Translations under genes and position numbers: made by a program | Notes under the pieces: generated by a model | Seen by the model: only the letters and a program-made list of their open reading frames with translations | Database searches by the model: none | Told to the model about the DNA's origin: nothing | DNA from: Heterodontus francisci | Lineage: Eukaryota | Direction: 5' to 3' | DNA length: 64,000 bases | NCBI RefSeq assembly: GCF_036365525.1 | Contig: NC_090377.1 | Coordinates: forward strand, 37,106,201 to 37,170,200 | Shown here: in pieces, positions 1,687-52,078 of the stretch | Layout of the letters: each line of letters opens with the position of its first letter | Position numbering within the stretch: position 1 is the first letter of the stretch

Positions 1687-3362
1687 ATGCTAGTTCATCC
1701 AAATAACCATTCTTTATCTGTGACCCAAGCCAATAATTACCATGCAGGAAAAAAATGTAGATTCAATACCAAGCACTCTTGTGTCAGAAAAGCAAGATCT
1801 AAAGTTGGTAACAAAATAGAAATTATAATACAGAACAAAGGAAAGCCTTACCTGGTAAAATGGGAATCCAGAAAGAGGCCAAATAAAAACAAAACTTCAA
1901 TCTGTCCATAATAATAGATGCTGGATTATGCACGTACAGTATGAAAAAGCATGGAAAAAGGGAAGCAAGGCCATGTGGTGTATGGTTTGTTTGAAGAAAT
2001 TCCCTAATGTCTATTTAAAAAAAAAGAATTCTTGAAGTTTCTTTTAAAAAGTAAATGCTTAGAATTTTTTCCCGAATCCTGCCCTGCCATTTTGGGTTTG
2101 CTTTCACCTCAGACAATTTTGATGGCACACCTAGCAATGGCTTCAATTTATTTAGCAGAGGTAAAATATGCAGAGTGGCCAGCTAATCACATGTTTTCCC
2201 ATGGTTGTCTGCCTTAAATTTAGCTCCCAGGCTAATCCAAAGCTGCGACTTCTGTTAAGCAGATTGGAGGTTGTCCACAGCACAGTCTGCTCTCTTTATC
2301 AGTGATGTCATCAGAATAACCTGATCCAAAATGGCTGTTCTTCAACAAGGTAAGAAATTCATGCCTGGGATTTCTACCAAGACTTTTCCCATTCGTGCGC
2401 TGTAGCTTCAGCCAAAGAGTGCCAAAAACTCAGAGAAATGGCATAAATGACCATTTACATTATTTCTGCAAAGTTTCCTTTAATCTTCTGCCAAATTTAC
2501 AGGATGAAATGAGGAAAAGAGCATCAGAAAATCAACCCCACATACAGGGCATAATTTAATGTGGCCGTTTAAAGTGGGAATGGTGCCGTGGGGGGACAGA
2601 GAATCGCATCAGAAGTGTCTGCCCAGAAATCCGGTGTCGTGATGTCGGTTCTGGATTTTGTCAGCGGCGGGAAAGCACCAAGGTGGCATTCCCTCCCTGA
2701 CGTGATGGGAACCAAATTTAAATTGCTGAGTAGTTGATTATAATGCATTAGCATCTAATTCACCTCAATTTAATGGTGGACTTGTGATTAGTAGACGGCG
2801 AGCAGCACTCATATGCCTTTGTGTTCACGACTGTTAAAAGCTGGTGGCACCAAGGCAAGAGGCTTCAGTGCCAAAACGGGTATGTAGCCATGAACAGTGC
2901 TGCATAGGGGAAGAGGGGATGTGCGGAGGCCATTTTTGGACTGTGTTGCTGTGCGCTCGGCAAGGGGTGGGGTTTGGGATCTTGGGGAGGGTCAGGATCT
3001 TGAGGTCTTTGCAAGTGGGTTCAGGGTCTCGGGTCTCTGACAGGGATGGCTCTGCAGGGGCTGGGGGCTTGGGTTTGAGTGGCTGTATTGGATACTGGGT
3101 GACAGGGTCAGCTATCAGAAAGAATGGGCACTGAGGCCCCTTAGGGAGTCTGCTGGGAGAAGTGTCAAAAGCTCAGTTGTCAAGGCAGGGTTTACTCAGC
3201 ATCAACAGGACTCTGTAGGCCCACTGGTCACCTGGCATGGGTCTCATAATCCCTGTCTTTTTAGACCCTCGAGGCATGATGCAGTGCCTCTGATGGAGGG
3301 AGGGCCAGGAGGCAGCTGTGCCCACCTGTGAAGCTCCACAGTGAGATCAACAGCAGCTGAAC

Positions 3363-4339
3363 ATGCCAAGAAGGGCTAATCTACGCCAGAGTGTGTACTG
3401 GACTCAATCAGCTACCTCGAAATGTCCGAATGGCATTATTAGCAAAGTCTACGGCGAAGCCGTCGCCGACTTATGCGCCCTGATGCAGGACAAATTGCGA
3501 CCTATGAGATTTGGGGGTCACCCTATGTCAGTGGCCCTGAAGATCACAGTGGCACTGAACTTTTACACGTCTGGATCTTTTCAAGGATCCACCAGGAATG
3601 TGTGGGGTCTCCCAGGCAGCAACCCACCGCTGCATCAAGGAGGTGACCAATGCCCTGTTTAAGATGGCCGGCGACTGTGTGCGCTACCGGACCATCCCTG
3701 ACAGTCAGGCTGAGAGAGCCACCGCTGGATTTCCCTGGGTGCAAGGTGTGATAGGCTGCATGCATGTGGCCATCAAGGCTACCTCAGATCAGCCAGCTGC
3801 ATTCATCAACAGGAAGTGCTTGCATTCAATCAACATTCAACTGGTCTGCAACCACTGAAAGCGTTTCCTGCAGGTGTGATTCCATTTCCCAAGAAGCAGC
3901 CATGACACCTACATACGTCAACTGTACCAGGTGCCACAGCTTTTCAGGCCCTCGCTCACCTTCAGGGATGGGTTCTCGGGGACATGGAGTATCCATTGAA
4001 GACATGACTACTGATATCTGTGAGGAACCCTTGCACTGCAGCAGAGGTGACACCTGCCACAGCTCCACCCGAGCGACCATCAAGCAGGCCATTGGGCTAC
4101 TGCTAATGAGATTCTGTTGCTTAGATCGATATTGTGAAGCCCTGCAGTATGCCCCAGCGAGGGTTTCGCATATCGTTGTGGTCTGCTGTGCTTTGCAGAA
4201 TCTAGCACTGCAGGGGAGGCATAATGATGAGATGCCTGAGAGTCACTCCTCCACTGACGAAGAGAATGCTGAGGAGGGAAAGGAGAAAGCAGCACTGAAT
4301 GTTGAAGCCCTTGCACTCGAGATGAGGCAAATTGTGTGA
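3363..4339 (+). pseudogene. Harbinger (HARBI1-like, DDE_Tnp_4) transposase, frameshifted
   Basis: Motifs across frames: ALKITVALNFYTSGSFQ; GFPWVQGVIGCMHVAIKA...FINRKCLHSINIQLVCNH; GWVLGDMEYPLK (3966-4001); HSSTRATIKQAIGLL..RF.CLDR...LQYAPARVSHIVVVCCALQNLA. First (GxIDxTH) and third (IE) catalytic residues are substituted. Confidence 0.88.
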
Positions 4340-4668
4340 CATGCCAAGGAACCAAGAGACAATCTCAAAATGACCAGCCTCCAGCCCCTCTGATGTCCAC
4401 TGACAGAGACACCAATAAAGTCTCACCTCAAAGCATGTAGACTGTTGCCTCCTTTCCATTTGTGCTCCATGACCTGCACCCAGCTGCAATCTATGCTAGT
4501 GCCCATGGGAGATCAAATGTTAATGAGGGCTATGATTACATTGGCATTCCACTAAGGGGAAGGGTGAAGTCTGCAGCTCACAATTAAGGCATAATGGAAT
4601 GATTTTTACACAATGATAGTTAATTATATGAACAAAATAACTTTATATGAATCATTACATGTCAAATG

Positions 4669-6358
4669 TCAGACACCCATGAATCTCCATGTGTGGCTAG
4701 GTAGTTTTCCTAATACATCTGCGAGTGGTGTGATCCCAGCAACAGCAGCTGGGCTGGAGGTAGTCTGCTGATCAGGCTGCCCCTTGGCCTGTGATGGCTC
4801 CGGTGGCCATCCTCTGGCTACCTGAGGCCTGGAGGGCCCTGGCTGCCTGAGGCTGACCTGCACTGGTGCAGGACTCGCCTCAGGCATCATGGCTGCTGAA
4901 GCTGGGCTCACTGGTGGAGGGGCTGAGGAGCCGCTGTCCACGTTCTGAGTTCCTTGAGGAGAGCCCCCAGCTGTGGAGGCCTCTCCTTTCTTTCAAGGCT
5001 CACTTGAACCTCTCTGCTCAACAGAGAAGAACGAGGAGCTGGAGACGTCTTCAGGTACTTTGTCACTTCTCTCACTTTTCCACTGCTGCATTGAGCTTAA
5101 GGCCAAGGCGATGGTGTGCAAGTCTGCACGCATTTGTGGGATCTGGCTCTCCATAAGGGTCGCTAACCTCTCGATGGAGGAAGCCAAACGCTCATCTGCC
5201 GGGGACATGGCAGCAGTCATGGCATGCACTCTTGGATGTGTATGGCCTCTGGCATCTCTGCCATATGTTGCCTTACCCTTCTGTGCAACTCCAGTATGTC
5301 CTGTGCTGTGGACACCAGAGGCTCGTCGGGGCTCAGCATGGGCCTGGCCACCCACAGTCCTTCGATTGTCAGGGGCCTCAGCTGTCTCAGCCTCAGCTCA
5401 GGCAGGTGTGCGGAGCTCTCACCAGCTTGTAGCCCTGCTTCTACAGCTGAACGGAAACCCACCAAGGTGAAAGTATCTGTGCTGGTGGAATTGTGCAAGA
5501 GAGTCATAGGATGGTGCATCCTCGATCTCCTGATCCTCCTCTGAGGTGGTATTATGTCCCCCTTATTCTGGAGTCTCCAGTGGACATCAACCTGCATGAG
5601 AGAATTTAAACATATGTGTGTTAGGCAGATCTCGTCATGCCAGCCATGCACGATGGAGGTCTCCACAAGTGAACTGTATGTCGATGGAAGACAATCCTCA
5701 ATCTCTTGTGCAGAGACTCCAATCTCTCCATCCGCTACTGAGCGGCCACCCTGGGTCCCTGCTAGTTCAAGTACCCCCTCCTCAGCCGTGGAGAGAGGCC
5801 TGATGTCTGAGATGCCTCCGCCAGTCCGAGATGTCTGCCTGTTGTCGTGGGCCCTCTTGTCCTGCAAGTGAAAAGAGGGCAATGATCATATTTTGTCGAG
5901 TCATCAACATGACAGTTTTACTAGTGACAGTCCCTCGTCTCTTACTGGGGTTTCCTATATAGCTTATCCTCCTGTCAGTTTGCAGGGCAGCCTGTGGCCG
6001 AGATGCATCTATGCATCTGTCAAGATGAACTGATTGTTAACCCCCTTTGCCAACGCTTTTGTGATGCCTCCCTCCCCATGTCCTGCTTCCTCCTGCCTAG
6101 CCTCATGTGATCGCTAAAATGGAGAGAGGTATCGAGCAATCACCTTGGCGGAAGGAAGAATTAAATCTCTTGTGGCACTGTACCCATGTTTGGGGGGGTA
6201 ACCCCATAGCTGCTGACCTCCTCTGCGATCTCCATCCAAGCTTGCTTGGTCAAGCAGGCAGAACTGTTTTTGCCATCGCTGGCAAAGAGGACCGCCCACC
6301 TCTCCCTTGCAGCATGGAGGAGAATGGCAAGGGAGGCATTGCTAAACCGTGGGGCCAC
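4669..6358 (-). pseudogene. Harbinger Myb/SANT-like (trihelix) DNA-binding accessory protein, spliced, decayed
   Basis: Exon 1 6358-6144 MAPRFSNASLAILLHAARERWAVLF...KQAWMEIAEEVSS ending AAG|GTGA; acceptor ttcacttgcag| at 5861 continuing DKRAHDNRQTSRTGGG (typical K/R-TGGG motif); further acceptor tctcatgcag| near 5591; coiled-coil/low-complexity C-terminus (ERLASSIERLATLMESQ). Confidence 0.8.
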
Positions 6359-7314
6359 CCACTGTCTTCCTTCAGCTGTGGTCGCTGCAGGCTCAGCTTC
6401 AGCTCCTTGCCTATCAGGCAGCAGAAGGGGTCCTGGGGCAGCAGAAGGTGTTCTGAGGCAGAAGAAGCAGCGGAAAGGAGTCCTGGGGCAGCAAACGACA
6501 CTCAGGAAGGCACTCTTTTAAACCAGGTAAGAGTGAATGCAAGACTGGCAAACCTTTAAATATAGCAGCAGCACCTGCTGCAGAGTCATTCAGCGCTATA
6601 ATTGGCATCTCGTCTCCAGCCCCCGCCGCATGATTGAGAGGGGGCCCCATGCCTTCATTATGCAAAATGGTCACCTGCCACTTGATCACGGTGGGGCAAC
6701 CGCCCACGTGACAAAAAGGAACAGCACCCATTTCCGCGACCGGCAGTGGGCTCCCTAAATTCAGCCCACAATGTTTTTTTCCTGAAATATAGTAAGGAAT
6801 ATTTTCATAATTGCATATTTTTTACTTAAGCATTGATGGAAGAAAATTTACACTCCCTACTCATTTCCTTACCTTCAATATTATAGCTCCTCAGCATTAT
6901 TGTTTTATTCCCCAACTCATCAAAGTCCTAACTAAATCAAAGTAGAGTTAGGAAGTGACATACGTAATGAGGCAAATGAGATGAAGTGAAATATGAAAGT
7001 GATAAATGAGAGGTACTATATTGTGTTGGTGTGAGAGATAAGCTCCTACTCTGGAGATGAACACAATGCTATTTATGAAATAATATATAAAATATCTACC
7101 ACAAAACTGAAGTACTGACCTGTGACTCATTGTTCAGTGAAATGGAAAGGTTGCACTACAACTTCTTGTAAAGACTAAATGTAATCCTTGTGACAATAAC
7201 ATGAAGCATTTTTGTAGAATAAAACTGAATTCTGAAAGGACAGACATTTTGAAGAAGCATTGCTCCCTAGTCAGTTATAATTTCTGCAAATACAGTTGTG
7301 TAGTAATAGAGTCA

Positions 7315-7420
7315 CAGAGAGATACAGCATCGAAACAGGCCCTTCGGCCCACCGAGTCCGTGCCGACCATCAACCACCCATTTATACTAATCCTATATTA
7401 ATCCCATTTTTCCCTCGCAC
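7315..7420 (-). mobile_element. 3' fragment of HE1-type V-SINE
   Basis: Matches reverse complement of the 3' part of the SINE copies at 46560-46898 and 28086-28400 (agagatacagc..gaaacaggcccttcggcccaccgagtc). Confidence 0.8.
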
Positions 7421-7659
7421 ATGTGGCAATGCTTAACATTTTGCTTGCTTGATACAAAATTTAACCACAGTCAAGTGCTTTTAATTTAATCAATGACTAC
7501 TGCAAGAGTTCCAGTGTTACAAACATTGAGGCAGTTCTTTGCAAAATGACTCAGGCAACCAAAATGGCAAGTATTCCACAGAATCAGAAAATATCTTTGG
7601 TTGGTGATTAAGAAAAATAAAGAAATTAGATGCATTTAATAGCACAAATGCTTAGAAAT

Positions 7660-8175
7660 GTGTTTAATCATACAGCACAGAAGGAGGTCATTGGGTCCAT
7701 TGTGCATTTGCTGGCTCTTTGAAAGAGCTATCCAATTAGTCACATTACCCAGCTCTTTCTCCATCAGCCTGCATTTTATTTTTCCATTTTCCAAGTATAT
7801 ATCCAATTCTCTTTTCAAAGTTAATATTGAATTTGCTTCCACAGCCCTTCTGGCAGTGTATTCCAAAGTCGAGAATTTGTATTTATAAAACTAGTTCAAT
7901 AGAGTAAAGGTTCATAGGAGTAGAACTTGAAGGGTTGTAGAGATGGAGGAGGCTGCAGAGATGTGGAGGAGTGAAGCCATGGAGGAATTTGAAAACAAAG
8001 ATGGGAGCCAAGATAGGTCAGTGGGCATAAGGGTAAGGGTGAGTGAGATTTAGTACGAGTTAAAATATGGGCAGCACAGTTTTGGATGAGTTCAAGTTTA
8101 TGTAGGTTGTAAAATGGAAGGCCGGTCAAGAGAGCATTGGAATAGTTAGGGCTAGAGGTAACAAAGGCATGGGGC
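7660..8175 (-). mobile_element. CR1 3' tail fragment (7660-7865) followed by L2 fragment (7935-8175)
   Basis: ORF 7636-7866 has AVEANSILTLKRELDIYL (CR1 ORF2 C-terminus); ORF 7896-8129 has LHKLELIQNCAAHILTRTK (L2 C-terminal region). Confidence 0.65.
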
Positions 8176-9639
8176 GGGAATTTCAGCGGTCTTGGTGATG
8201 GAGTGGAGATGTTGGTGGAACCTCATCTCCGGGTTCCAGATCATCATAACTTGCTGCATAAAGATATGTGTCCTCATCTGCCCTCTGTTTCTTTGGCTAA
8301 TTAAATTGTAAAATAGGTCGTTACTCATTAGAAAAAGAAAAGAAACATATAATGGCAACAGATGAAAATTCAATAGAATGGAAGTAATGATTTAAAATAT
8401 GTCTACAATAAAATGAATTAAATGGGATGATTAGAGCATATAAGATTAAACTTGTACCAAGTAAAAATTCTAATATGTAAAATGAGAAAGGACAGAGCAT
8501 CAGACTAATAGACTCAAAAAAATTAGCTGTACATTGAAAAATGGGGATAGATAACTGAACTAAATTAATTGACTGGCACTGGATGCAGAATGCACAGAAG
8601 TAGGTTGGAAGGGTATAAGCAAGGCAAACTTCAGTCTGTGATAAGCAAACTAAAACAAGGAGATAAAAAAGCAATCACTAGGGATAGGACAAACATTTCA
8701 CAAATACACAACTTGAAAACAATAGATAAAAGCTCATTTCAATGGAACAGAAAAAAGATGTTGGGTTAATGAGATTATTTGAAAGTACTAACAAGTATTG
8801 AGCTGTTTTTTCAGGTCACGTTACAATTATCAGGGGTTTAATTTCTCTTTGTCGAGCTTTGTTTAACATTTGCCTATAATTCCTTTTTTCACCATTTTCC
8901 ACAAAAGGTATTTGAAAACAAGAATTAAAAAAAAAATTAGGCAAAGTATATCCTGAAGTTTACAACAGGTGTCGAGATGAAAAGCAGTTAATATGCTAAA
9001 GGGGAGTAGTTTTCTCCAGAGACTAAACATAAGCAGATTGTTAGCTTGTCTAGTTATTGAAGAACATCTCACACTCATTGTGTTGAAAAGTCATTTGACA
9101 TTTGTGGTGTACTTTCTCACTTGTATGGCACATTTCAGAATGTTCACCATGTGCAGTCCTCATATCACATCTTGGCAGCTCAGTTTGAAGTCTTAATGCT
9201 TCATCAATTGTCTCTTAACCCCCCCCCCCCCACCGCACACCCCCCCCCCTCAATTCATATCTCTCAATGCTATCATTATTTTGCACTCTTCCTTCAATTT
9301 TCAGATGAGCTCTGGTGTGACTTTCAGAAAAGGATATGGAAGAATCAGTTGTCAAAACATGAAAGGATAAAATTACATGGGGTTGAAATTACATTTTTAT
9401 AAAGAGAACCAAAAAGAAATTACTTCAAGCATGAATGCCTGGGGTTCTGTACATATTTTCTGAGGCCTCACTGAGTGTCATTGGAAAGTCCATTACAGAC
9501 AGCTCACGGAACATTCGCAAAATTGGAAGACTCCTGGGCTATGCTGGCTCTCCAATCAGGAGCATTAAAACGTTTTGGGATATCATTTTCTGCAGCCAGC
9601 TGGACGTCATCTTGTAGTCAGATTTGCTCTTTGCAGAAT

Positions 9640-11345
9640 GTTAGAGAAATGGGAGTTGTTTGAGGATTGGAAAGTAACTAAACTCCCAACAATTTTTAAA
9701 CAGGGGCATAGGCATGACGCAGAAAACTATTGCCCATTGGGACTAATGTCTATCATAGATAATCTATTAAAGGTTACATGAGGAAAAGGGGACAATTTAA
9801 AAAAAAAACTGAGATAGATATCGTGGTAAAAGAAAGTCAGTGTACATTTATAGGAAAGAGCTCCTATCTAATGTTTTACTGGAGTTATTTGAGGAAATGG
9901 TGGACCTTGTTGATGAAAATTCTGTGCATGTGATATGCTTAGATTTCAGTAAGACTTTTGATCATATAGAATAACAGAATTGTTACAGTGCGGAAGGAGG
10001 CCATTTGGCCTGTCATGTCTGCGCTGGCTCTCCAAAAGAGCAATTTACCAAGTACCACTCCCCTATTTTTGCATTGTTGTTGGGTTTGTATTAGTAATGT
10101 TGTAGGCGTTCTAGAGAAAGTCTTAGACTCTGATAAAGGTTCTCTAACAACTCTTTACTATTTACTGATACTATATACACTCTCAGCAAGCCATCTAAGC
10201 TAGCATCGTTCATGCTGCTATACCTTTTTGTCAAACCTATCATGTGACTGTTACATTATCGCTCGTACTATGGGAGGGGTCTCTCTCTCAGTATTTGTTT
10301 ATAATCTTTTACATCCTTATACTGCACCCACCTTCCCCTCATAGCCCTGCACATTTCTTTTCGGATAACAATCCAATTCCCTCTTGAATGCCTCAATTGA
10401 ACACACTCAGGCAGTGCATTCCAGATCCTAACCACTTGCTGCGTGAAAAAGATTTTCCGTATGTCATTATTGCTTCTTTTGTCAATTATCTTAGATCTGT
10501 GCTCTCTTGTTCTCGATCCTTCCACCAATGCCGACAGTTTTTCCCTATCTACTCTGTCCAGACCCCTTGTGATTTTAAACACCTCTACCAGATCTCTTCT
10601 CAACCTTTTCTTCTCTAAGGAAAACAGTCCCAACTTCTCCAACTTATCCATGTAACTGAAGTTCCTTGCCCCAATGGAACCATTCTCATGAATCTTTTCT
10701 GCAATCTCTCTAATGCCTTCACATCTTTCCTAAAGTGTGGTGCCCAGAACTGGACACAAAACTTCAGTTGAGGCCAAAGCAGTGTTTTATACGTTGAACA
10801 TAACTTCCTTGCTTTTGCACTCTATGTTTGTATTAATGATGCAAGATGCTGTATGCTCTATTAACCATGCTTTCAACCTGCCCTGCCACCTTCAATGATT
10901 TATGTACATATACATCTGTACAAGTAACTTATTCACAAGGCTGAAAGGCATTGAATAGGAAGAAAGTTTTTCTGGTGCATTGAAAATTGGCTAAACCAAT
11001 GAGGCCAAAATGGTGGTCACGAATGGAGCTGTGTTGGCAAGGCAAGGTATCATTTGGGGCTACTGCAGTGATCAGTGCTGAGATTATTGTTACTCAGAGT
11101 AATTGTGGGGAAAGTAATGTTTAAAAACCATAAAAAGACAAATCAAACATCACATGATTTAAATAAATTGGGGTGATGAGCTGATGAGGACAAATAACAT
11201 TTAATGTGAACAGATGGAAATGTGGTGTGAATGGTGAAAGGAAACAGTAAAGTGGGAACACAAACTAAATGACTCCAGGCTATAGGACACAACACAGGAG
11301 AGAGACCTGGGGGTTTGGCTGACAGTTGACTGAAATCTACAGTCT
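9640..11345. mobile_element. Ancient + strand CR1 RT remnants interrupted by a younger - strand CR1 3' segment (10330-10915)
   Basis: EDWKVTKLPTIFKQG..NYCPLGLMSII and LDFSKTFD-like remnant (+); LGLFSLEKKRLRRDLVEVFKI...FFTQQVVRIWNALP (-, 10268-10651). Confidence 0.7.
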
Positions 11346-11987
11346 TACAATTTATTGGTTCTGATTATTTTAAACAGTCCCCTCCTATGCCATCATGGGC
11401 AGATGCCTGCACAGGTGAAGGGTGGTAAGAATTCCCCATGACCATTGAAGTCAATTACAAAAGTGTTCTTTATGAAACATTAAGCATGGGGACTAGTTCA
11501 GGCATGTGAGTTGTGGAAGTTTCTTTCACAATGTTTACAAGTTGTTGCCAGCCATTTTTAATACTATTGAGTTGATTAACTCCATGAAAAAGACACACAA
11601 AATTACTGAATTACTCTTAATATGTTGTTACAGCGAATCAAGCCCACAGGGGCCCCCAGAGAAATAGGGAGAATCAGAGATAAAGACCCTAAGACAATAC
11701 ATGGTTTTGCTATAGTATACATCACTAGTTTAACATAACTTCCTTGCCTTTGTACTCTATGCCTCTATTAATGAAGCCAAGGATGCGTTATAGTTTAAGA
11801 TATAGTTTTAAGATTCACCTCTTATAGTGGGCAGATGGTATTAACAGCAACACACCTCCTATTAGCTGTAGGCGTTATATTTTCATCACTGTGAAAATTT
11901 TGACTTCTTATAGCAAGGGCCCAGACATTTCAATAATTGTTTTTAAACAGCAAAATAACTAAAAGTAGTAAAAGAAAAACAAATATG

Positions 11988-12515
11988 CTATAGCTGAAAA
12001 AAAGACATGCTATCAAAGCTTTTTATCATGCACTCATCAGGACAGACACAAGAATGCCAAATTTCAAAGGGAGCAACAGTTTCTGCTGCATGAGGAAAGG
12101 GTGCTCATTGTTTGGCAAGTCAATTCTGGTCAAGGCATTGCCATGGAGAATCCACCAGGGAACTATTGTCCCCCATGCTTTTGTTTAATTCAAAAAAGGG
12201 TGCGACCCCTGAACATGTTCCTTTTGCCTGCAGATGACAGGTTCCTTAATATTACCTGTCCTCTGCAGGCAAAAGGAATATGTCCCAGCATTGCGCCTTT
12301 TTAAAATTAAACAAAAGTGTGGGGGACAATGATTCTCTGGTGCATTCTCCATGGCAACGCCTTGACCAATCAGCACTCTTTTCTCATGCAGTATAAATTG
12401 TTGCTTGCTTTGAAATTTGGCGTCCTAATGTCTATGCTGATGAGTGAAAGATGAAAAGCTTCAACAGCATGTCTCTTTTTTCAGCAATACTCAAGTTCTG
12501 GACTACCAAGCGACT
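11988..12515. mobile_element. ~500-bp fold-back palindromic element with hammerhead-like motif in each arm (putative Penelope-mobilised non-autonomous element)
   Basis: 11989-12242 and 12254-12489 are imperfect inverted repeats around an 11-nt loop; 26-nt unpaired tail 12490-12515; direct repeat AAATATG at 11981-11987 and 12516-12522. Confidence 0.8.
12432..12467 (+). ncRNA. Minimal type I hammerhead ribozyme motif (degenerate); mirror copy at 12010-12045 on - strand
   Basis: ctatg-CTGATGA-gtgaaagat-GAAA-agct-TC-aacag; mirror copy reads ctgtc-CTGATGA-gtgcatgat-AAAA-agct-TT-gatag; self-complementary stem III AAGCTT as in minimal Penelope-associated hammerheads. Confidence 0.6.
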
Positions 12516-14808
12516 AAATATGATTATCTTTAATATGTTCTTTGACTACTATACAAATAGTTTGACTTCACAAAAAAGTGGATCCTGAATGTCTGTTTGT
12601 CATTAATTTATTGCCTTTAGTGGCAGCAGTGTAGGAGGCCACATATGTTGCATACATTAAGTTGTCCTATTTTGGTCATTAGAACAGATTGTTTGAATGC
12701 TTTCAACCAGTATCTAGTTGGATTTCTGCAGTGGATTGGAATATTCAACATTACTGATTTAATTTTAAAAATGTGTAGTCATTGCCAGAAAATCAACTCA
12801 ATCCAATACACTGAACATTTGGGCCTAGATAAGAAGGCTTTTGATTGTATGAAGTCAAGCACATTTCTATTTTATAAATACCCCAATAGAAATCCTTTTA
12901 CCATTTTTCGTTAACCGAGTCTGAGCTCTGTGCAAACCGTTAAGAAGCATTTAGTAATGGCACCTTTAATATTTTGTCACCAAGCTTGTCACAAGCAGAA
13001 TTTTCCATGTGTTGGCCTCTGACTTATTTATAATAAGAATAACATATTCGGAAACACTCAGTATTACAGAGAAGAATGAGCATCTCATTGTCTTTCTGTA
13101 AACAGTATTTGAGTACTAATGAGCAACACACAAGTCCCCCCCCAAGATTAATTAACAACTACAAGGTCTCTGGATAGCAGATAAAATGGAACGCTGGGGC
13201 CATGCATTTCTCTCAAGTAGATGATTCCATGTAGAAATGAGAGTTTGTTCTTTTAGGTAGACCCCAATGGGCTCCATTGATATAAGATTAGCCTACTTTT
13301 AGCAGCCGATAAAAGAAGAGTGAATAAATATTTACAGCTTTTTAAAGAGAGTAATAAAATGCATTTCAATTATTGTTATGTGATTAGAGGGAGCTTAATA
13401 AAATGAAGATTTCAGTTTTTAATTTTTCAATGGCTGTGACAAACCTGGAGATAATTTTGTAATAATAGGAACATAGGATCAATAATATAAACAGAACTAG
13501 ATGATTAGCATAAATAATTAAGAAGGAATTAGAGGTCAATTTTAAAATGTTCAGGGCCTAGAAATTCATTGAAGATGCATCCATTTTACAAGCATAAAAT
13601 GGAGACCTAAGCAACCAATATGGCACGCAGCATGCATACGTATATTTAGTGGCAGAGGTACTCCACATACCATATTGGTAAAGACTGAAATATAAATGAC
13701 CAAGGCTTGTGCCTGGAACAGTTGCATATGCCAAGAGGGGGCTTAATGCCTGTTTCAGGGCCCCATTCCTGAAACTAAGCCTTAGGCTGGGTAGGTTCAG
13801 GATAATAAAGTCTGCTCATTGCCTAATTATGTGGCCCTTAAAAGGAGAGCTGGAGGCCACCAACAAGTAACACTGCTGCCAGTGACCTAACCATCGTTCA
13901 TAGTTCGCCTATCTAATTTAAGTGAGACCTGGGGCCCTATATCGAATATACCTTGGGCCTATCTGTTTTCAGTGCAGGGATTTTCACAGAAACAGCCTAT
14001 CGGCCCAACAGATCTATGCTGGTGCTCGTGCTCCACATATCCTATTTCTTTCTCTTCATGTGCTTTTCTAGCTTCCCCTTAACTGCATTTATGTTATTCA
14101 CCTCAACTATTCCTTGTGGTGGTGAGTTCCAGATTCTAAACATTCTCTGAGTAAACCTAATGTTTATCCTTTAAAAAAATGTATTCAAATCTTTTCCTTG
14201 CATTGTTGATTTTTTCTCCGGGCCCCTGTCTGTATTGGCGGTGTGAGCATGTTTAGAATAATTGAGTTTTAAATGCATGAAAAACAACTTAAATACTTAA
14301 TGTTCACTCTTCAGCCAGTTGAAAGAACAAATTATTGTTATCATTGAAGCCTAAAGCTTCTCACAGTAAAAATACATTGGTAATTTCATTTTCATTATTT
14401 CTGTTGGTTCATCATACAACGATGCATTCTTCTTGACTGCTTTCAAGTACCTGTCTGTATTTTTGATATGTTAAGAAAATGTGTACCAGTTTCATGGGTA
14501 TAAGTTATTCTTATTATGGTGGGTCAATGGAATTGTGCTTCATGGAGACACAGTGACTGTGTCCTCCCTAAGTTTAATGATGCCTTAGCGAAAAAGTGCC
14601 AACTCCTCACAGTCTTTTAGTTAGGAGGCCACTAGTTTCTCCAATTGACCACCCTCATGAGCAAATAGTGGTAATTTCAAATCACTTATGATTATATATC
14701 TGATGCCTGGCAGTCTAGAGGAACAAATAGTCCATCTGGATTCCCCTACTTCCAGAGGAGGGTGTTCTGCTTCTGTTTTAGCTTTGCTATTCATACATTG
14801 GATTCACT

Positions 14809-15000
14809 GGGGACAATTCTAACCCAAACTGCCTATTGGGAAACTGACAAAATCAGTTGCAGCATGGTTTAACCCCCTTCCCCTCCCCACCCCCAGCCGC
14901 TTTTACCCTCTACTGAAGAATAATATTGGACGTGATGTAAAACCAGCATTCCACCTGATCCCATGGGCTTCCCATCTGGCGAGTTTAGATAAAAACACCC
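14809..15000. mobile_element. Short degenerate palindromic MITE
   Basis: Ends ggggacaattctaacccaaact / agtttagataaaaacaccc are imperfect inverted repeats with further internal inverted similarity. Confidence 0.4.
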
Positions 15001-16279
15001 ACAAAAAATACAAATTTCAGTTCTAAAGTCTCAGTTCTCATTCATAATCAGAAGATTTATCTTAAAAGGAATTATTACAACTAATGTCTCATCATCTGTT
15101 AACAGATAATGATTCATCTTTTCTGTAGGTCCAATTTGTGGAAATCACTGTTTGAATGTAAATGATCATTTAATTTTTAAAGATGGCTTAATGAGAGATT
15201 GAAGCTACAGGTTGTTTGATTTTTTTTTGTAGCTCTGCTGTTCCTTTCCTGATTTGTCCAGATAAACCTGATTTGCTTACTAGAACTTGTGCATTTACCA
15301 CAAAAGATTATCCAATCCTGGCTGCAGAAAGATTGGCAGCAACTTTCAACAGTGGACCACCCGTTTCTAGTCTGAAAAACAGACAGCCTGCAACTGAAAA
15401 TCCCATCGATCATCTGATCTGTTTTTTTTTTGACTGGCCTGTAAATGGTGTGAATGAGTGGAAGGATGCTTAAATACATCAATTAGGGTCCTATGCTGCT
15501 TGTGGGACACCCATTCTAATTTTAAGGTGCAGATGTCGAAGTGTGCACCACCTACTCTCTGCCAATTTGTGCCAGGCATTCAGTGGACCAGTCAGCAGTC
15601 CTTTAAAGATACTGCTCTTAGCCATTCACAGAACAGCCCAGGAAACTAGGAATTATTTTTGGGATGGTTAGCAGTGCAAAAAAACTCCTGTCCGATCAAG
15701 CCCCCATCCCCATCCTGGGGAATGCCCACCCATCAACCCAACCTGCCAGCCAGCTCTTTGGGGAGTCAGCTAATTATCTAGCCTCCAGCAACTGAAAAAC
15801 AGCTTATTTTCTTGCTGGAAAGAGCAGGATGCGGGTAGTGGGGGGAGGGAGAGGGGCACCATTGCTGCTGAGCTGACCTGGTGCCGGTTTTGGACACAAG
15901 ATCACCCCTTAGTCTCCATACTAACCTCCCTTTCTCAAATTCCTTTTCATGGGATTTATTTAATAGGATTCCATTTAGGTGAGAATGGATATATAACTAC
16001 AATGAATAAAATTTTTAAAATGCAGTACAAAATCAATATGGTATCCGTAGTCATACCTGCATTTGCCGAATTAATGCTAACAGAAAAATGGAACATAATG
16101 CACGCAGCAAGAGAAGGTCAATAAGCCTGATTGTTCTGTGAAACCTCTCAAATCTATCCATTTATTTAACATCCAGAGAGAAAGCTGTCCATAAATACTT
16201 CTCATTCCCTAAAAATGATTAAACAAAACATCGGGCCATCGATCCATCTGAAAATCTGTTCAACACTGGTGAGCTACTC

Positions 16280-16615
16280 TCCACACCTTCGAAGGTCCGC
16301 TTCCAACCAGCTTCCACAGCATAACACCTCCCCCTGTCAATCAAGATCAATGGAAAAATGCAGAAAAATATGGACCCTTTTCCATATCTTGAGAGCCTCT
16401 TCTCAGCGAAGGCAGACGTAGAGGATGAGATTCATCATTGTCTCAAATGTGCTAGCACAGTCTTCGGTCAACTGAGGAAGACAGTATTTGAGGATCAGGA
16501 TCTCAAACCCAAGACTAAGATCATGGTTTGCCAGGCAGCAGTGATCTATAAGCTTCTGTATGCTTTGGAGACTTGGACAACCTACAGAAGGGACCTCAAA
16601 GCACTGGAGATCCCA
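16280..16615 (+). mobile_element. RTE-clade (BovB-like) LINE RT C-terminal fragment
   Basis: FPYLESLFSAKADVEDEIHHCLKCASTVFGQLRKTVF...KTKIMVCQAAVIYKLLYALETWTTYRR matches the RTE consensus FxYLGS...DxEIxxRIxKASxAFGRL...TKxxVYxAxVLxxLLYGxETW. Confidence 0.8.
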
Positions 16616-17467
16616 AGGGGCTGCCTAAGAGGAAGACTGTCCACACCCAGCACAGTCGTACTGAAACATTTACTGCCTGACCAAGTGGTGGAGGATTTGT
16701 ATTTGATCCCTAGTAGTTTAGAGAACTCCACTTTCATAATCATTTGAAAACAGATGGTAATATAGATTTGGACTTCTCCACCATCGAGTTGTCCAAATGC
16801 ATATCTTTAATTGTCTTATGAACATAAAGTTGTTCTTTTACATATTTTGTGAGCATGTTAAAAATAAAATTGTCAGAATAAATCCTTAAAATCATTGGTT
16901 GACTTGTAGCTGAAAATTGATTTATACTGTTATGTTCCTGTCAGAAGGTTGAAACTGATCAACTAGAAATATATTTTCTTTTTCCACTTTTAACTTGGAA
17001 TCACTTACTAGAAATTTCAACTTTTTGAAAAGAAAATGCTACTAAGCTGTAAAATAATGAGAATGTGCATGTGGTAAATTCCAAGTGTCTTTTCAAATAA
17101 TTATACTCTTCTAGTACGGTATTCATGAACTGAATTTAGTTTGCTTAAATCTGGAATTCACAGTATGAAACATATGAATTTGCAGCAAAGATGAGCAGGC
17201 AAATAGCAGCTGGCCCATCATGCCTGCCCAATAATCATGGTAGCTATAGCATCATGACAAGACATGACAACCCTCCCACACAGCCGTCATCTCCTGGGAG
17301 AAGTAAAGAAATCCGAATAACAGGGAGAATAAAATTCTGGAGAATTGTTTTCTGACCAGGAGATCAGATTAACCATTTGTACGTAAACTGTTAATGCACT
17401 TAACTTCCATATGATGCAATCCCTCCCCAGCCAGTACCAGCCCAGTTCTCTCTTGATATTATACAGG

Positions 17468-18055
17468 GGGCTGAATTTTCATTTGTGAATCCCGATCCTG
17501 CTGTCAGGAGGAAATGCAAGTCCGAACCCACACGTGCTGGTGTCTGGACCGCCCAATAGGAGGTCCTCCAGCACTGACACATCAGCAGCCCCTCAAAATG
17601 GAGGTGCCCTCTGAAGTCTTTTTAAGAACTTCATAAACAAGAAGTGGCCACAGCTGCGTGACTGCCATTGTGTAGGGGGAACCCATCCACAGTGCAGTCT
17701 GTGGCCACAGTTGCATCCATCTTGGTATGTCAGCTGCCAGGAGGGGGATTTAAAATGATTGTGGAGCGTTGGTCCCCTAGTTTGCTGCTTGGAGGCTGCC
17801 GCCATTCCTTGGTTGGGTGTTGGCTGCTGTGGGGCTCCTGCTGGCCAACTGGGAAATTCTGGTCAGCCTCAGAACATTGGTCCTTTAATTGTCCTAAGAG
17901 GCTACCTGCCATTTGCAGGCAGGTGGCCAAGCCCCCATCAACAGGCTCTTCAAAAATAGCCAGCAAACCTGGACACCAGCTGGTGATGGGAAATTGCAGG
18001 TCCGTCTGCCTCCAGTCTTGCGTCTTGCCTCCGTACCCATTTAAAAATTTGGCAC
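17468..18055. mobile_element. Harbinger-type MITE (decayed)
   Basis: Starts GGGCTGAATTTT (same terminus as the Harbinger at 2547-6767), ends AAAAATTTGGCAC; GC-rich non-coding interior; flanks AGG/AGA. Confidence 0.55.
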
Positions 18056-19635
18056 AGAGAGTCAGCACTTGCCACAAAATGTTTCTTGAAATAGATTAAA
18101 AATCCACATTTATAATTGTTTATTTGGCCTTTTGAAGAGGATTTATGTATAATTGTATGAGTCATGTACAAATCTGGGAGAAATCAAACATTTAGTAAAA
18201 TATTAGTTATACATACATATATGAAGTGCAGCAACTTGTTCTGGAGTCATACTTTCAGTAACCTTGATCAGATGAATGAAAGGAAGACTATTTAATTGTT
18301 GCTAAAAACATAGTATTGTAAGATATTGCGAAGAATGCGACTGTAGAAATGAATGACTTTAAATCACTGATGGATATTAATAGAATGTTGATTACACGTC
18401 TTATTTAAGAAGCAGTTATCTCTAAGACACATTAAATTAATGTAGAAAATGGTTTCTATTTTTAAACTAATACATGCTTCCTAGATTTTATTTAAGTGAA
18501 ACCTACTGTTCCTGTCTGTTAGCTTTTAGTGGGTTCAAGCGCTTCTTGCATATTTAGAGCCAGAAACAAAGACCATCATTTTATTGACATGTTGTTTCAA
18601 GACTCTGAATAATTTTATGCTTTTGGATAATTAACACTTAGAACTTTTAATGTCAAGAGACAAATTGGCTATTATGGTGAATGTACTTGGCATTTTTAAC
18701 ATCCATTCCTTGATTAATTGCAATCATAATGCTTCAGGAATAGCCCTGCTTTTTAATGTCCAAGATTATTTGAAAAAAGGAGTGATGTGCACCGCTTCAA
18801 TATTTATTTATTTTTTGATAATTATATGTTATATATGATGTATATAGTTAAAAGCTGGAATATGCTGTTTGCTTAAATAAATTTTGTACATTTGAGCATG
18901 GGCACCATTTGTACCTACAATATATAACCTGGGTACACAACAGTTCATGCTATATGGTTTAAACAGTTTATGTTTATGTTTATACCTTTTTTCACTGAAA
19001 ATTGGCTCTATATTTTACTGTAAATCTCCGAGCACACATTTTCACTAGTTTTTCAAGACACATGGACAACTGTATATGTGTAGGGCAAGATATCTCATCA
19101 ACTGTGCAACACAGGTCAAATCATTAGGCACAGCACCTGAAGCCCGAAAATTTAACTACAGACTTCAACTCACTGGTTTATATTAGATAATATAAAAGAA
19201 TGTTATTAATTCTCATCATGCTACAAGTGAGTTGTATTTTCCAGGAGATGTCAAATTCCCTTGAAAATCATTGCCCGTAGAAGGAGTGGGCCATGGCTAT
19301 GTTGGTTTAATAATAGGATAATTCATACTATAGTACCTTTGTCAAATTTAACAGATAAAACCACACTAATTGTTGAATGTTATTGTCCATGACCAGCCTG
19401 CTCAATTTTTATGCTTATAGCACTTTGACTTTTTAAAAAAAACAAAACCCAGCTTTTGGAGTTAGTTTTTTTTCCCAAAATATTTCTACCTCCCAAAATG
19501 GTTTGGGTGGGAGAAAGAGGGGACCAGATAATGTCATCCAAAGCAGACTAATTTGCAAAGGATGAATGACCTTTTGTTAAATCTATATTCTTTTGCTATG
19601 CTCAGCTTAGTCTGGTTTGATCCCAGAATGCCTGG

Positions 19636-20705
19636 TGTCAAGAAAACATGCTATACTAAATGAAGATTTTAAATTCATTGGTTGGAAACCTACAATAAAC
19701 TTTTAAAAAGGAGCTGAGATCCTACAGTTAACTTTAAAAAAAAAACTGGCAGCCAAGATGGCCACCACAATTTGCATTGAAATACCTCACATTCCAGGAC
19801 ATCGAATCGGAGATGCATGTCCAATGAGATTGCATCCAGGACAATGCCTCATGAATTTGGAAACAGCTAACAGCTTTGCTTCTATTGGCAAAACATTCAA
19901 AGCCATCTTGGAACATTAACAGTGGAGTGAAACCTCCAGGGGGTGAGCATTGAAACAATGAGGCTCAAGAGAGAGATTGAAAATACCTAGACTCGAATCT
20001 ACTTAACTTGCAAAAGAGGACACTGGATAATCATGTGACTGCCCCCCCCCCCCCCCCCCCCCGCCCCCACCACCAATCTGTGGAAAACTAACAGTCTTTT
20101 ACTAAAGGACAAGCTCCTGCAATTTTGAAGCAGACAAGCTTTGGGTGCTGACCAGACCAAATCTCAGTGGGGCTGTGTGTGTGTCTCTCTCTCCAGAAAA
20201 CATCACAAGTTTAAAACCTGTCTGCGACTGTGGAATCCCCAAGTCTACCATTGCTACAGACAGAAACCCCAGGGAGGAAAGCCACCTACAACTCTGTCTC
20301 CAAGAAAAACTTAAACCAGGTGGGCCAGCCACAAACTGAATTTCAACTAGCCAAAGACTTCAAGATCACAACTTTAGCCAGAAGACTATGGAATTACCTG
20401 ACCCCACAGACTGTATTTTTTAAAACTTTTTCTGGACTCTCATCCAAACCAAACTATTTCTTATCACTCTATACTCTATTTGTGTATGTGATTCTTGTGT
20501 GAGCATAGGTGTAGTGTAGTTTTATTATTTTATTTAGATCTGGTTAAGCTTTTTTTAAATTACAATAAACTCACCTCTTTCTTGTAAACACTCATTGAAG
20601 TGGTAAGCACATTCACTGTTTCAAAAAGGAATAAACCCTGTTGAGGTCAAACAAGGAGAAGGAGAAGAGAGGAGCCTTGTGACCTTTCCTCACCTGATCG
20701 TAACA
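19636..20705 (+). mobile_element. Solo LTR (Gypsy/Gmr1-related)
   Basis: TGTCAAG...CGTAACA termini (TG...CA), 4-bp TSD CTGG at 19632-19635 and 20706-20709, AATAAA at 20564; 3' end ctcacctgatcgtaaca resembles the LTR end ctcacctggtcataaca of the element at 46083-53279. Confidence 0.8.
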
Positions 20706-20894
20706 CTGGGGAAATATCTTTTTCCAAAAGAATCATGACTGTGTGCCCATATTTGTACAGTTATGCATTAATTGAGCTCCAACTTTGAGCTACCTCAGTA
20801 AATGACAGCTCTGTGGATGGATGTTGCAAAACAAATTCCGCATGAGCAGTCAATTTCAGATTGATTTTCATAGTTTAAATCTAGTAGTATTACA

Positions 20895-21440
20895 TAGAAT
20901 TACATAGAATATAGAGCACAGAAACAGGCCTTCAGCCCAGCCAGTCCAGTGCTGGCATTCATGCTTGACTTGAGTCTCCTCCCATCTTTCTATTTCTAGC
21001 TCTATCAGCATAAGCCTCCATTCCTATCTCCCTTGTATCCTTATCCAGCATCTTCTTAAATGCTTCTATGCAATTGAACATCCATTCCCTGTGGTAGCAA
21101 GTTCCACATTCTCACTAATCTCTGGGTGAAGAAGATTCTTCTGAATTCCCTATTTTGTGGTGACTATCTTATATTAATGGCCTCTAGTTTTTCTCTTCCC
21201 CTCAAGTGGAAGCACTCTCTTTGTGTCTATTTTATCAAAACCTTCCGTAGTTTTAAAGACCTTAATTAGGTCACCTCTCTACTTTCTCTTTTCAAGAAAA
21301 AAGAGACCCAGTCAGTTCATCCTTTCCTGAACTGTATAACTTCACATTTCTGGTACATCCTTGTAAATCATTTTTGCACCCTTTTCAGTGCCTTGCAATC
21401 CTTTTTATAAAATACAACCAGAATTGTACAGAGTTGAGTG
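20895..21440 (-). mobile_element. CR1 3' fragment
   Basis: (catagaat)n tail, acagaaacaggcc..cagccc 3'UTR and decayed ORF2 C-terminus on reverse strand. Confidence 0.7.
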
Positions 21441-22907
21441 GAATTGTACACAGTAGTAAATGGGAAAGGCTAGGCATGTCATAGTGAAAAACTGCAACAG
21501 GAGAGGACAGTAACACTCTGACCCTAATAAGTCTAACAAGGTAGCTTGGGGAGGCAACATTTTATAAATTGGGAGCATGCACCATCATAACCACATTTGT
21601 CATGCGGAACGGAAAATGATAATCACTTGGGTTTTTGGCAGTGGGGGGAAGTCTCCAGCTTAACTATGCCTATTCTCTATAAGATCAATAGCTTTCAAGG
21701 GTCTCTGATCGATCAGCAATGTGTAATTATTCATTATAGTTGAAGACCATCTAATTTTGTGAGAACAGAATTGATACATTGAAAGTACATTGAGGACAGG
21801 GAGCTTTAGGGAACAGCATGATCAATCTGCTGTAATGGATATTTAAGTGAATTGGCATCAGCTTGTTCAGTCCCCTTCCAAGCATTCATTGTGTAAACTG
21901 CCTTTTTGAATTTGAGCTGTTCACACAGGGTTACAACACCTAGCAGCTAGCATAATTAACTCATTAATTTCAGAACTGCATCATTCCTGTACACATCTTT
22001 CTTATTCATGTAAACTATTCATTATTTTGCTTATCTGATGGCAGCACTGCAATGGTTAACTTTCTCATACTGTTTTAAATGTAGAAATAGGCCAGGGTGA
22101 GAAGTTTGTCACAGTTGACATTATTTCCTCTCCGGTTATGGCAGGTGCATATCATGCATATTAATACTCAGAACTTAACTTTGTAGATTTCCTAGATCTC
22201 CCATCTTGCAGCTGTATTCCCTAGTCTAGAAGGCTCGTAACACAACATTGACTTCCTTTACAATATTTTGTCATGCCTGATGAACCACACTTCGCTATGT
22301 CTTATAAATGATGTTGCCATGTTCCCTTACTTCCTGAATCACAACCTTAAGTGCTTGGTCATTAAGGCAGCACTTTCTTCTGCCTTATTGCTTCAAAAAA
22401 GTTGCCCCGAAGTTTAACATGCAGTATTTCAATGTCTTAAGTGGCTGCTTTGTACTTACATCAAATACTGGACAGGATTATTGCAACTAATGTTTCTTTA
22501 GGACTCCTGCTGTGTGATTGGTGTAGTGCATATAAACTCACTAATTAGAGAGTAAAACTGTGAGTTCAGGAGTGCACTTTGTAGCATATGGGACTGCATA
22601 GTTAACTATTGATGTTTCATTTTTAGGCTGTGGTGTGTGATATTTTACTGTGCTTTCTGCAAGATACTATGAAATCTGAATGTAATCTCATTATTTGTGG
22701 TAATCAGTCACTTATAAAAATAAAAATCTACTTTCCATACTTCTGTCCATTTGGGATGTAACTACATGTTGATGCAACCATTATAAGCATGACTATAGAT
22801 TATAGCCTCGGTAGCAGATGTACTGCATCTTTAGTCATTGAAAACATCAAACACAGTTCTGTGTTATGGTCTTTTTATAAAAATAGATTTTTGTTCTCCT
22901 CCACTAG

Positions 22908-44600: not shown

Positions 44601-45048
44601 GGGCATAGATGGGGTAGAAAGGAAGAAACTTTTTCCCTTAGTGGAGGTGTCAATAACCAGGAGGCATAGATTTAAGGTAAGTGGCAGGGGGTTTAGAGGG
44701 GATTTGAGGAAAACATTTTTCACCCCGAGGGTGGTTGGTATCTGGAACACACTGCCTGAAGAGGTGGTAGAGGCAGGTACCCTCACAACATTTAAGAAGT
44801 ATTTAGATAAGCACTTGAAACACCATAGCATACAAGGCTACCGGCCAAGTGCTGGAAAATGGGATTCCTTAGAAAATAGGCAACATGTTTAGATAAAGGA
44901 TCTGGATTGGCGCAGGCTTGGAGGGCCGAAGGGCCTGTTCCTGTGCTGTAATTTTCTTCTTTGTTCTAGGTGCTTCATGGCCGGCACAGATACGATGGGC
45001 CGAAGGGCCTGTTTCTCTGCTGTAGATCTCTATTACTCTATGACTCTA
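41650..45048 (+). mobile_element. Near full-length CR1 LINE (3' part of ORF1 esterase + whole ORF2 APE-RT), decayed
   Basis: ORF1 tail MNAWL..W..RWDLYKSDRLHLNWNGTNILAGR; APE YFNARSL..DIIAITETWL..DFNFPNINW; [44 protein letters not shown]; C-term PQLEYCVQFWSP; 3' tail ctctatgactcta; scattered stops/frameshifts. Confidence 0.92.
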
Positions 45049-50410: not shown

Positions 50411-50422
50411 GATTACTTTCCC

Positions 50423-51861: not shown

Positions 51862-52078
51862 TCACGCACAACCACAAGAAAATCTATTTTAATCTTGCTC
51901 TTTTTTTGATTGGGGACAATATGGCTTCCCACTTCCAATTTCTCTCATTCATCTGTGGGTAAAATTCTGGACGCTAGCTCCTAAATTTCTGTTATGACCA
52001 GGTGAGAAAGGTGTCTAGGGGTCTTTTTCTGTCTTCACCTGGTTTTATTGTAACAGGTTTCAATTTTCAACACACTGT

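What the first reader, a model, noticed from the sequence alone, without database searches (positions are those of the whole stretch)
11988..12515. 500-bp fold-back element with a hammerhead ribozyme motif at each end, inserted as one unit
Seen: 11989-12489 is a long imperfect palindrome (arms ~240-250 bp, loop 12243-12253) plus a 26-nt tail, flanked by AAATATG/AAATATG. Each arm has stemI-CTGATGA-9nt-(G/A)AAA-AGCT-T(C/T)-stemI (12432-12467 on +, 12010-12045 on -); differences such as TTCAACAG vs TTTGATAG are what CpG decay of an ancestral TTCGACAG would give. Known: Penelope-like retroelements carry minimal hammerheads with tiny stem II and palindromic stem III that cleave as dimers, and often leave inverted terminal pieces; hammerhead-bearing non-autonomous retrozymes exist in animals. 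Inference: a non-coding, rod-like, ribozyme-bearing retroelement family in which either strand gives the same long dsRNA hairpin; it lies in a transcribed intron, so it could yield dsRNA/editing substrate or self-cleave.
Basis: partly seen in the sequence, partly recalled or inferred. Interest (0 to 1): 0.7.

Follow-up and report, generated by a model that had tools for sequence, protein, structure and literature searches.

The report
Head-to-head Penelope retrotransposon stump pair
This 528-base mirror-image stretch is two decayed end fragments of a Penelope-type jumping gene joined head to head, likely laid down in one insertion; the layout is already known, and both of its ribozyme motifs are predicted to be broken.

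Summary
The palindrome, the two minimal hammerhead motifs, the one-sided 26-nt tail and the AAATATG flanks are all there. It is not a separate non-coding family. Each arm is the junction region of an autonomous Penelope-like element (RT plus C-terminal GIY-YIG, Penelope/Poseidon-type): the last 16 codons of its ORF, a CCAAT/TATA region, the hammerhead, then the first 7 (left) or 16 (right) codons of the same ORF. The tail is ORF codons ~8-16. The genome search returned about 4,000 first-look candidates, mostly single 5'-truncated stumps. 35 of 114 copies not chosen for symmetry are head-to-head pairs, with unequal arms, different joints and AT-rich 8-14-bp duplications. Of 47 pairs, 39 join one tailed and one untailed arm and none was called tailed at both ends (one looks so by eye). 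This fits priming from both cut DNA strands at two RNA start sites. Here the left ribozyme has lost core G12, the right has a broken stem I, and in a read-through RNA each would be zipped into the rod. A host gene or intron was not confirmed. Ordinary fossil of a known insertion type; interest low.

The parts
11981..11987 (+). Left copy of the likely 7-bp target-site duplication (AAATATG); base 11988 is unassigned
   Evidence: Sequence; p=0.06 alone, family-wide TSD test positive in 15 of 25
11989..12246 (-). Left arm: 5'-truncated 3' end of the Penelope-like element, short (untailed) end stopping at about ORF codon 7; holds the 18-nt segment that the right arm lacks; CCAAT and TATA motifs degraded
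   Evidence: 87% to family consensus, positions 1716-1975; alignment
12010..12045 (-). Left minimal type I hammerhead motif; core GAAA reads AAAA (G12 lost), predicted inactive
12247..12253 (.). 7-nt filler (TAATATT) at the head-to-head joint; origin unresolved
12254..12516 (+). Right arm: 5'-truncated 3' end of the same element, long (tailed) end stopping at ORF codon 16
   Evidence: family consensus 1720-2002
12255..12302 (+). Last 16 codons of the RT/GIY-YIG ORF (PVLCRQKEYVPALRLF); the family's stop codon is mutated here
   Evidence: same C-terminus in longer copies and in database protein P0002
12366..12397 (+). CCAAT (12366-12370) and TATAAA (12392-12397) motifs, putative pLTR promoter; activity untested
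   Evidence: sequence, conserved across copies; role inferred from PMC3846280 and PMC8557442
12432..12467 (+). Right minimal type I hammerhead motif: core, GAAA, palindromic AAGCUU and UC intact; only 3 of 5 stem I pairs left, closing pair broken, G10.1-C11.1 now G-U; predicted inactive or very weak
12469..12516 (+). First 16 codons of the ORF (MSLFSAILKFWTTKRL); 12490-12515 is the 'tail'
   Evidence: continues in frame into the ORF in full-length copies L125 and L127; 44-69% identical to the N-termini of 6 database homologues
12516..12522 (+). Right copy of the likely target-site duplication (first A shared with the element end)

Best explanation
The palindrome is two 5'-truncated copies of the end of a Penelope-like retrotransposon joined head to head, likely made in one old insertion when the element's enzyme primed reverse transcription from both cut strands of an AT-rich target, and it is now probably inert. 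Shown: each arm is ORF end + pLTR (promoter motifs, hammerhead) + ORF start; an autonomous but decayed parent family exists in the genome; such pairs are common, have individual joints and variable duplications, and nearly always pair a tailed with an untailed end. Inferred: the GIY-YIG domain made a staggered cut (7 bp here); one 3'-OH primed at the distal RNA start (ORF codon 16), the other at the proximal start (codon ~5-10); both cDNAs stopped after ~260 nt and were joined with a 7-nt filler; the arms then decayed independently. The hammerhead belongs to the parent's pLTR and would have worked, if at all, as a dimer or with protein help on tandem transcripts.
For: Copies extend upstream into GIY-YIG and RT coding sequence. 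RT piece L063 hits 295 proteins at E<=1e-20 among 1,176 candidates; the 120 listed nearly all carry RVT_1. Full-length homologues have RT then GIY-YIG; a 125-aa endonuclease piece is 46% identical to P0002 up to its last residue. P0007 gives 61 matches in the genome; the best cover residues 199-836 or 82-838 with many stops. Tail = ORF start. End positions are bimodal: 60 of 175 at codon 16, 87 at codons 5-10. Head-to-head in 35 of 114 loci not picked for symmetry; 39 long/short, 8 short/short, 0 long/long of 47 pairs, p=2.8e-6 against 50%. TSDs of 8-14 bp, 75% AT. The untailed arm reaches further 5' in 16 of 36 pairs, the tailed arm in 16, so neither is simply a copy of the other. Published: inverted 5'-truncated copy, one-sided tail and 8-10-bp TSD (PMC8557442, PMC3846280); both strands cut and extended, two internal RT starts bounding the tail (PMC11167929).
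Against: The 7-bp duplication at this locus is borderline alone (p=0.06) and no empty site was available. Twin priming is inferred from fossil ends. The in vitro study saw no difference in start site between strands, which does not by itself predict the long/short pairing. 8 of 47 pairs are short/short, and L114 looks long/long by eye. Some joints are perfect hairpins (L102), as fold-back priming would give. Pfam scores of the family's own pieces are below the curated cut-offs (RVT_1 E=0.006, GIY-YIG E=0.001). No intact parent copy was found among the 54 candidates scored.
Confidence: 0.88

Rival explanations
1. Fold-back (self-priming): one cDNA was made from the tailed start, its 3' end snapped back and copied itself to give the second arm, stopping short of the tail.
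For: Explains why two tails are almost never seen. Palindromic joints occur (L102, L104, L119). Proposed for Adineta elements, on an antisense template (PMC3846280 passage). Arms share more derived changes than random copies: 37 against 14.6 expected over 16 pairs.
Against: A copy of the tailed arm cannot hold sequence that arm lacks, yet the untailed arm reaches >=10 nt further 5' in 16 of 36 pairs and >=100 nt in 10. At this locus the untailed arm has 18 nt that the tailed arm lacks and reaches 4 nt further, and the arms share 0 derived changes. Later deletions could mimic part of this.
Confidence: 0.12
2. One reading: a non-autonomous, rod-shaped, ribozyme-bearing retroelement family that is transcribed and moved as a ~500-nt palindrome (retrozyme-like).
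For: Six near-equal ~500-bp palindromes are the top places when the palindrome is the query; strong rod.
Against: That ranking is a query bias. The six have different joints; arm lengths across pairs form a continuum from ~35 nt to ~1.9 kb; the arms carry ORF remnants and grade into RT-coding copies; most copies are single; no head-to-tail arrays were seen in the loci mapped; a ribozyme in the rod is sequestered.
Confidence: 0.03
3. Two separate insertions side by side, or a later local inversion/duplication, made the palindrome.
For: The arms are as far apart as unrelated copies (13.8% against 12.1% non-CpG), share no derived change, and differ by an 18-nt indel.
Against: One duplication flanks the whole unit here and in most sister pairs; 31% of unselected copies are such pairs and follow the long/short rule; a local duplication could not add the tail.
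Confidence: 0.04
4. A MITE of a DNA transposon with long terminal inverted repeats.
For: Inverted ends and a short duplication.
Against: Duplications vary in length and sequence; ends are asymmetric; the sequence is RT/GIY-YIG-linked.
Confidence: 0.01

Closest known systems
EN+ Penelope-like element insertions with inverted pLTR, one-sided tail and TSD (Pen2a_Av of Adineta vaga, PMC3846280; general scheme in PMC8557442 Fig. 2 legend)
   Same: Head-to-head inverted 5'-truncated copy; tail on one end only; variable short TSD; TATA in the pLTR; pLTR and tail hold the first codons of the ORF (12 and 22 aa in Pen2a_Av; ~7 and 16 here); ~840-aa RT + GIY-YIG parent.
   Different: Here both halves are truncated to ~260 nt, so no ORF body lies between them; tail ~26 nt rather than 30-40; different host and family.
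Poseidon of Anolis carolinensis, PAc (PMC11167929)
   Same: Hammerhead at the pLTR/ORF start; two preferred 3' ends inside the ORF's 5' end bounding the tail; AT-rich targets.
   Different: PAc's ORF starts within the ribozyme and one RT start lies at +111-118; here the ATG is just downstream of stem I and the ends are at about +15-30 and +48. The parts of that paper read do not treat head-to-head pairs (0 hits for 'head-to-head' or 'palindrom').
Minimal type I hammerheads of metazoan PLEs (PMC4209133)
   Same: Core CUGAUGA/GAAA/UH, 5-bp stem I, G10.1-C11.1, short palindrome in place of stem III; that paper also notes pairs 100-700 bp apart on opposite strands.
   Different: Stem II here is 2 bp; both copies at this locus are damaged; no cleavage test and no covariation here.
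Animal non-LTR retrozymes (bioRxiv 10.64898/2026.07.22.740005; PMC7229834, listing only)
   Same: Short, type I hammerhead-bearing, PLE-derived sequence.
   Different: Retrozymes are head-to-tail tandem repeats with a ribozyme in each unit; this is head-to-head, carries ORF remnants and is not propagated as a unit.

Membership tests
EN+ Penelope-like element | Single ORF with PLE-type RT followed by C-terminal GIY-YIG endonuclease | tested here: met
   In longer copies of the family; homologues with RVT_1 then GIY-YIG. The family's own pieces score below Pfam cut-offs.
EN+ Penelope-like element | DKG motif and CCHH motif with two Cys inside the GIY-YIG core | tested here: met
   PDKG and VYEFQCxCDARYVG, with downstream His residues, in family translations; definitions from PMC8557442
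EN+ Penelope-like element | pLTR joining ORF end to ORF start, with hammerhead motif | tested here: met
EN+ Penelope-like element | 5' truncation, inverted 5' copy, tail at one end, variable TSD | tested here: met
Penelope/Poseidon clade | No CX2-5CxxC zinc finger in the RT-EN linker | tested here: met
   None seen by eye in the linker translations
Penelope/Poseidon clade | RT phylogeny groups with named Poseidon/Penelope references | not testable with these tools
   Hits carry no clade names; no Repbase or Dfam set on hand
Minimal type I hammerhead ribozyme | Conserved core, NUH site, stem I, G10.1-C11.1, palindromic stem III (family level) | tested here: met
   Majority state of 96 copies once CpG decay is allowed; 47 exact intact copies, control 0
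Minimal type I hammerhead ribozyme | The same features intact at this locus | tested here: not met
   Left lacks G12; right has 3 of 5 stem I pairs and G-U at 10.1/11.1
Minimal type I hammerhead ribozyme | Compensatory changes in the stems | tested here: inconclusive
   0 two-sided changes in 10 rows, 7 of them chosen on the intact motif; only stray ones in 96 copies; the 88 loose-pattern hits were mostly point variants of the same family
Minimal type I hammerhead ribozyme | Self-cleavage | not testable with these tools
   Needs an in vitro assay
Non-LTR retrozyme | Head-to-tail tandem units, each with an intact hammerhead, no coding remnant | tested here: not met
   Head-to-head, ORF-derived ends, damaged motifs
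MITE (class II) | Fixed TSD, symmetric ends, same-boundary copies | tested here: not met

The most novel reading that the evidence does not exclude
The two reverse-transcription start sites of Penelope elements are used in a coupled way: in a two-ended insertion one cut strand is primed at ORF codon 16 and the other ~26 nt upstream, as a protein dimer sitting astride the tail of one RNA (or two RNAs of one source) would do. The one-sided tail and the inverted 5' copy would then be one phenomenon, readable from thousands of fossil stumps like this one.
Probability: 0.5. Interest if true: 0.45.

Novelty: new member of a known kind. Interest (0 to 1): 0.2.

Why it matters
The locus itself matters little: it is one decayed stump pair among thousands of copies, in a layout described since at least 2013. 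Its use is as data. How Penelope elements build inverted ends and one-sided tails is described as unresolved in PMC8557442, and the end statistics here (39 of 47 long/short, none called long/long; either arm may be the longer) make a twin-priming model directly testable with the existing in vitro PAc system.

Tried and rejected
Rfam: no hammerhead family matched the locus or three loci with the intact motif; only hairpin-driven miRNA matches below the gathering scores. Expression: no RNA holder listed for 9000-16000; three coded runs guessed to be RNA, contigs only, laid on 2000-21999 covered mainly repeats and gave no usable splice joints. This is no evidence for or against transcription. The rest of the window was not covered with reads. 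PDB sequence search with P0007 gave three weak RT matches only. Covariation: one search used a mis-registered structure string and is disregarded; one search is the corrected run and is uninformative. A 22-aa pairwise comparison found no alignment; one search was the wrong frame. Short inverted stubs at the 5' end of single copies: none passed the score threshold among 51. Selection on the ribozyme core: 4.1% (37 of 893) substitutions against 5.7% (188 of 3299) in flanks, too close to claim. The sigma-70 promoter scan does not apply to a eukaryote. Arm homogenisation by gene conversion at this locus: not seen. A paper search for Penelope + shark + retrotransposon + elasmobranch listed 3 papers, none opened; whether this family is already in Repbase or Dfam could not be checked.

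Full report
1. Observation. The described features are in the sequence. Three inverted segments of 114, 73 and 49 nt at 80-88% complementarity, plus a 14-nt outer pair, span 11989-12489. The RNA folds as one rod, -317.6 kcal/mol, z = -29. Hammerhead motifs lie at 12432-12467 (+) and 12010-12045 (-). AAATATG flanks the unit at 11981-11987 and 12516-12522. The bare core pattern is at chance level in the window (2 matches, 1.47 expected), and Rfam finds no ribozyme, so the motif rests on the family evidence below.

2. It is a repeat, mostly single. A search with the element gave 3,969 first-look candidates, 40 scored. Six of the top places were palindromes like this one; the others matched one arm, some with a further piece nearby. 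Aligned copies agree over ~260-280 nt and many continue upstream, by amounts up to ~500 nt in the first set and ~1.3 kb in the second.

3. The parent is a Penelope-like element. The upstream sequence translates into a GIY-YIG-type domain with two Cys inside the core, preceded by a linker and an RT with the QxDGVAMGSPLGP, YVDD and DKG motifs. A stop-free 246-aa RT piece (L063) hit 295 proteins at E<=1e-20 among 1,176 candidates, up to 60% identical, nearly all of the 120 listed with RVT_1. Four of five homologues scanned have RT then GIY-YIG. A 125-aa endonuclease piece matches P0002 at 46% to its last residue. The family's own pieces score under Pfam's cut-offs. P0007 (841 aa) gives 61 matches in this genome; the long ones all hold stops, and copies average 13% from consensus, so the family looks extinct. 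C-terminal endonuclease, CCHH and no CX2-5CxxC linker point to Penelope/Poseidon by the criteria in PMC8557442 (passages); no tree with named references could be made.

4. Anatomy of an arm. The right arm starts with the ORF's last 16 codons (12255-12302), passes CCAAT and TATA motifs and the hammerhead, and ends with the ORF's first 16 codons (12469-12516, MSLFSAILKFWTTKRL). In full-length copies L125 and L127 that peptide runs on into the ORF, and it is 44-69% identical to the N-termini of six homologues. So the 26-nt tail is coding sequence, as in Pen2a_Av, where pLTR and tail hold the first 12 and 22 residues (PMC3846280, passages). The left arm is the same unit ending at about codon 7. 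Across 175 ends, 60 fall at codon 16 and 87 at codons 5-10.

5. Head-to-head pairs are a by-product of insertion. In four sets picked by ORF sequence or ribozyme pattern, not by symmetry, 35 of 114 loci are head-to-head (5/29, 8/27, 14/30, 8/28; pairs whose partner lies beyond the fetched flank are missed; 2 loci without a family match, 3 re-fetched loci and 1 duplicate were left out). Joints and arm lengths differ from locus to locus. 15 of 25 pairs have flanking direct repeats above the 95th percentile of 600 mismatched pairings, 8-14 bp, 75% AT; this locus's 7 bp is borderline, p=0.06. With an automated tail call, 39 of 47 pairs are long/short, 8 short/short, 0 long/long (27, 8, 0 of 35 without the palindrome-picked set). 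Single copies are long in 31 of 87, which by my arithmetic predicts about 22 long/short and 6 long/long. By eye L097 and L119 are long/short and L114 long/long.

6. Mechanism. Two published facts fit: PLE insertions often carry an inverted 5'-truncated copy and a tail at one end only (PMC8557442, passages), and purified Anolis Poseidon protein cuts and extends both strands at AT-rich DNA, starting at two internal RNA sites that bound the tail (PMC11167929, parts 1-2 of 4). I infer priming from both target ends, one at each site, with the two short cDNAs joined. Fold-back priming, proposed in PMC3846280, also explains the rarity of two tails, but it requires the tailed arm to contain the untailed one. 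The untailed arm reaches >=10 nt further 5' in 16 of 36 pairs, the tailed arm in 16, and 4 are level (some are complicated by nested inversions). Here the untailed arm has 18 nt that the tailed arm lacks. That indel, between short direct repeats, is discordant in 9 of 22 pairs and never deleted in both (my count), while arms share 37 derived changes against 14.6 expected over 16 pairs. So arms tend to come from one source lineage but are copied separately; one RNA or two cannot be told. At this locus the arms share none and are as divergent as unrelated copies.

7. The ribozymes. The family majority is a minimal type I hammerhead: 5-bp stem I, core, 2-bp stem II, palindromic AAGCUU, UC site, matching the description in PMC4209133 (parts 1-2 of 4), which reports low dimer-dependent cleavage and also opposite-strand pairs 100-700 bp apart. 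47 places in the genome keep the intact 35-nt form, control 0, but only 2 of 96 copies not chosen on it pass all criteria. Here the left has lost G12 and the right has 3 of 5 stem I pairs. In a read-through RNA of either strand the sense ribozyme comes second, after its antisense partner; freeing it costs 49 or 52 kcal/mol. No covariation could be shown. A long dsRNA hairpin would form if the locus is transcribed through, but that is untested.

8. Comparison and novelty. It works like, and meets the tested criteria of, an EN+ PLE inverted insertion. It fails the retrozyme definition (tandem units; bioRxiv 10.64898/2026.07.22.740005, part 1 of 5 and passages) and the MITE definition. No supplements were opened; they may hold this family or such end counts. 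Three answered searches on these features listed no paper whose title is about long/short pairing, but most listed papers were not read. This scan already holds 158 notes with these keywords in at least 16 genomes; the 8 shown reach the same reading. They are AI notes, not support; my reading and the long/short test came before I saw them. They do show the finding is commonplace.

9. Verdict. Real, explained, ordinary: a fossil head-to-head stump pair of a Penelope-like element. Interest 0.2. The one lead worth keeping is the coupled use of two start sites.

Noticed in passing
L060:1-918 (-): Open 306-aa RT frame of a second, distant Penelope-like family (30% to P0007; RVT_1 E=5e-6), beside a copy of the family studied; possibly younger.
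   Followed up: partly
L096-L099, L113, L114, L121-L140: A second subfamily with a promoter region about 50 bp longer (family positions ~1802-1850 appear twice); most near-full-length copies belong to it.
   Followed up: no
L102 ~1396-1419; L104; L119: Head-to-head joints that are perfect or near-perfect hairpins, the best cases for fold-back priming.
   Followed up: partly
L125, L122, L134, L139: Long copies with a short inverted pLTR at the 5' side; by eye they also pair a tailed with an untailed end.
   Followed up: partly
L013, L015, L048, L060, L079, L085, L092: Internal inversions with non-overlapping pieces, resembling LINE-1-type twin priming (resemblance recalled), within copies of this family.
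   Followed up: no
window 12247-12253: The joint filler TAATATT shares AATAT with both the target duplication and the element sequence just upstream of the truncation point; origin unresolved.
   Followed up: no
window ~3300-6600: Broken frames that look by eye like a PIF/Harbinger transposase and its partner gene (identification recalled, not tested).
   Followed up: no
window ~47500-53000: Two similar ~400-bp segments flanking gag/pol-like broken frames, likely a decayed LTR retroelement with a LINE piece inside (recalled, not tested).
   Followed up: no
window, many places (e.g. 42000-44900, 56900-59950): Many broken CR1-like LINE frames; about half of the window is masked as repeat.
   Followed up: no
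L064 and L065: 99.9% identical over 3.4 kb, one on a small contig: an assembly duplicate or allele; L064 was dropped from counts.
   Followed up: partly
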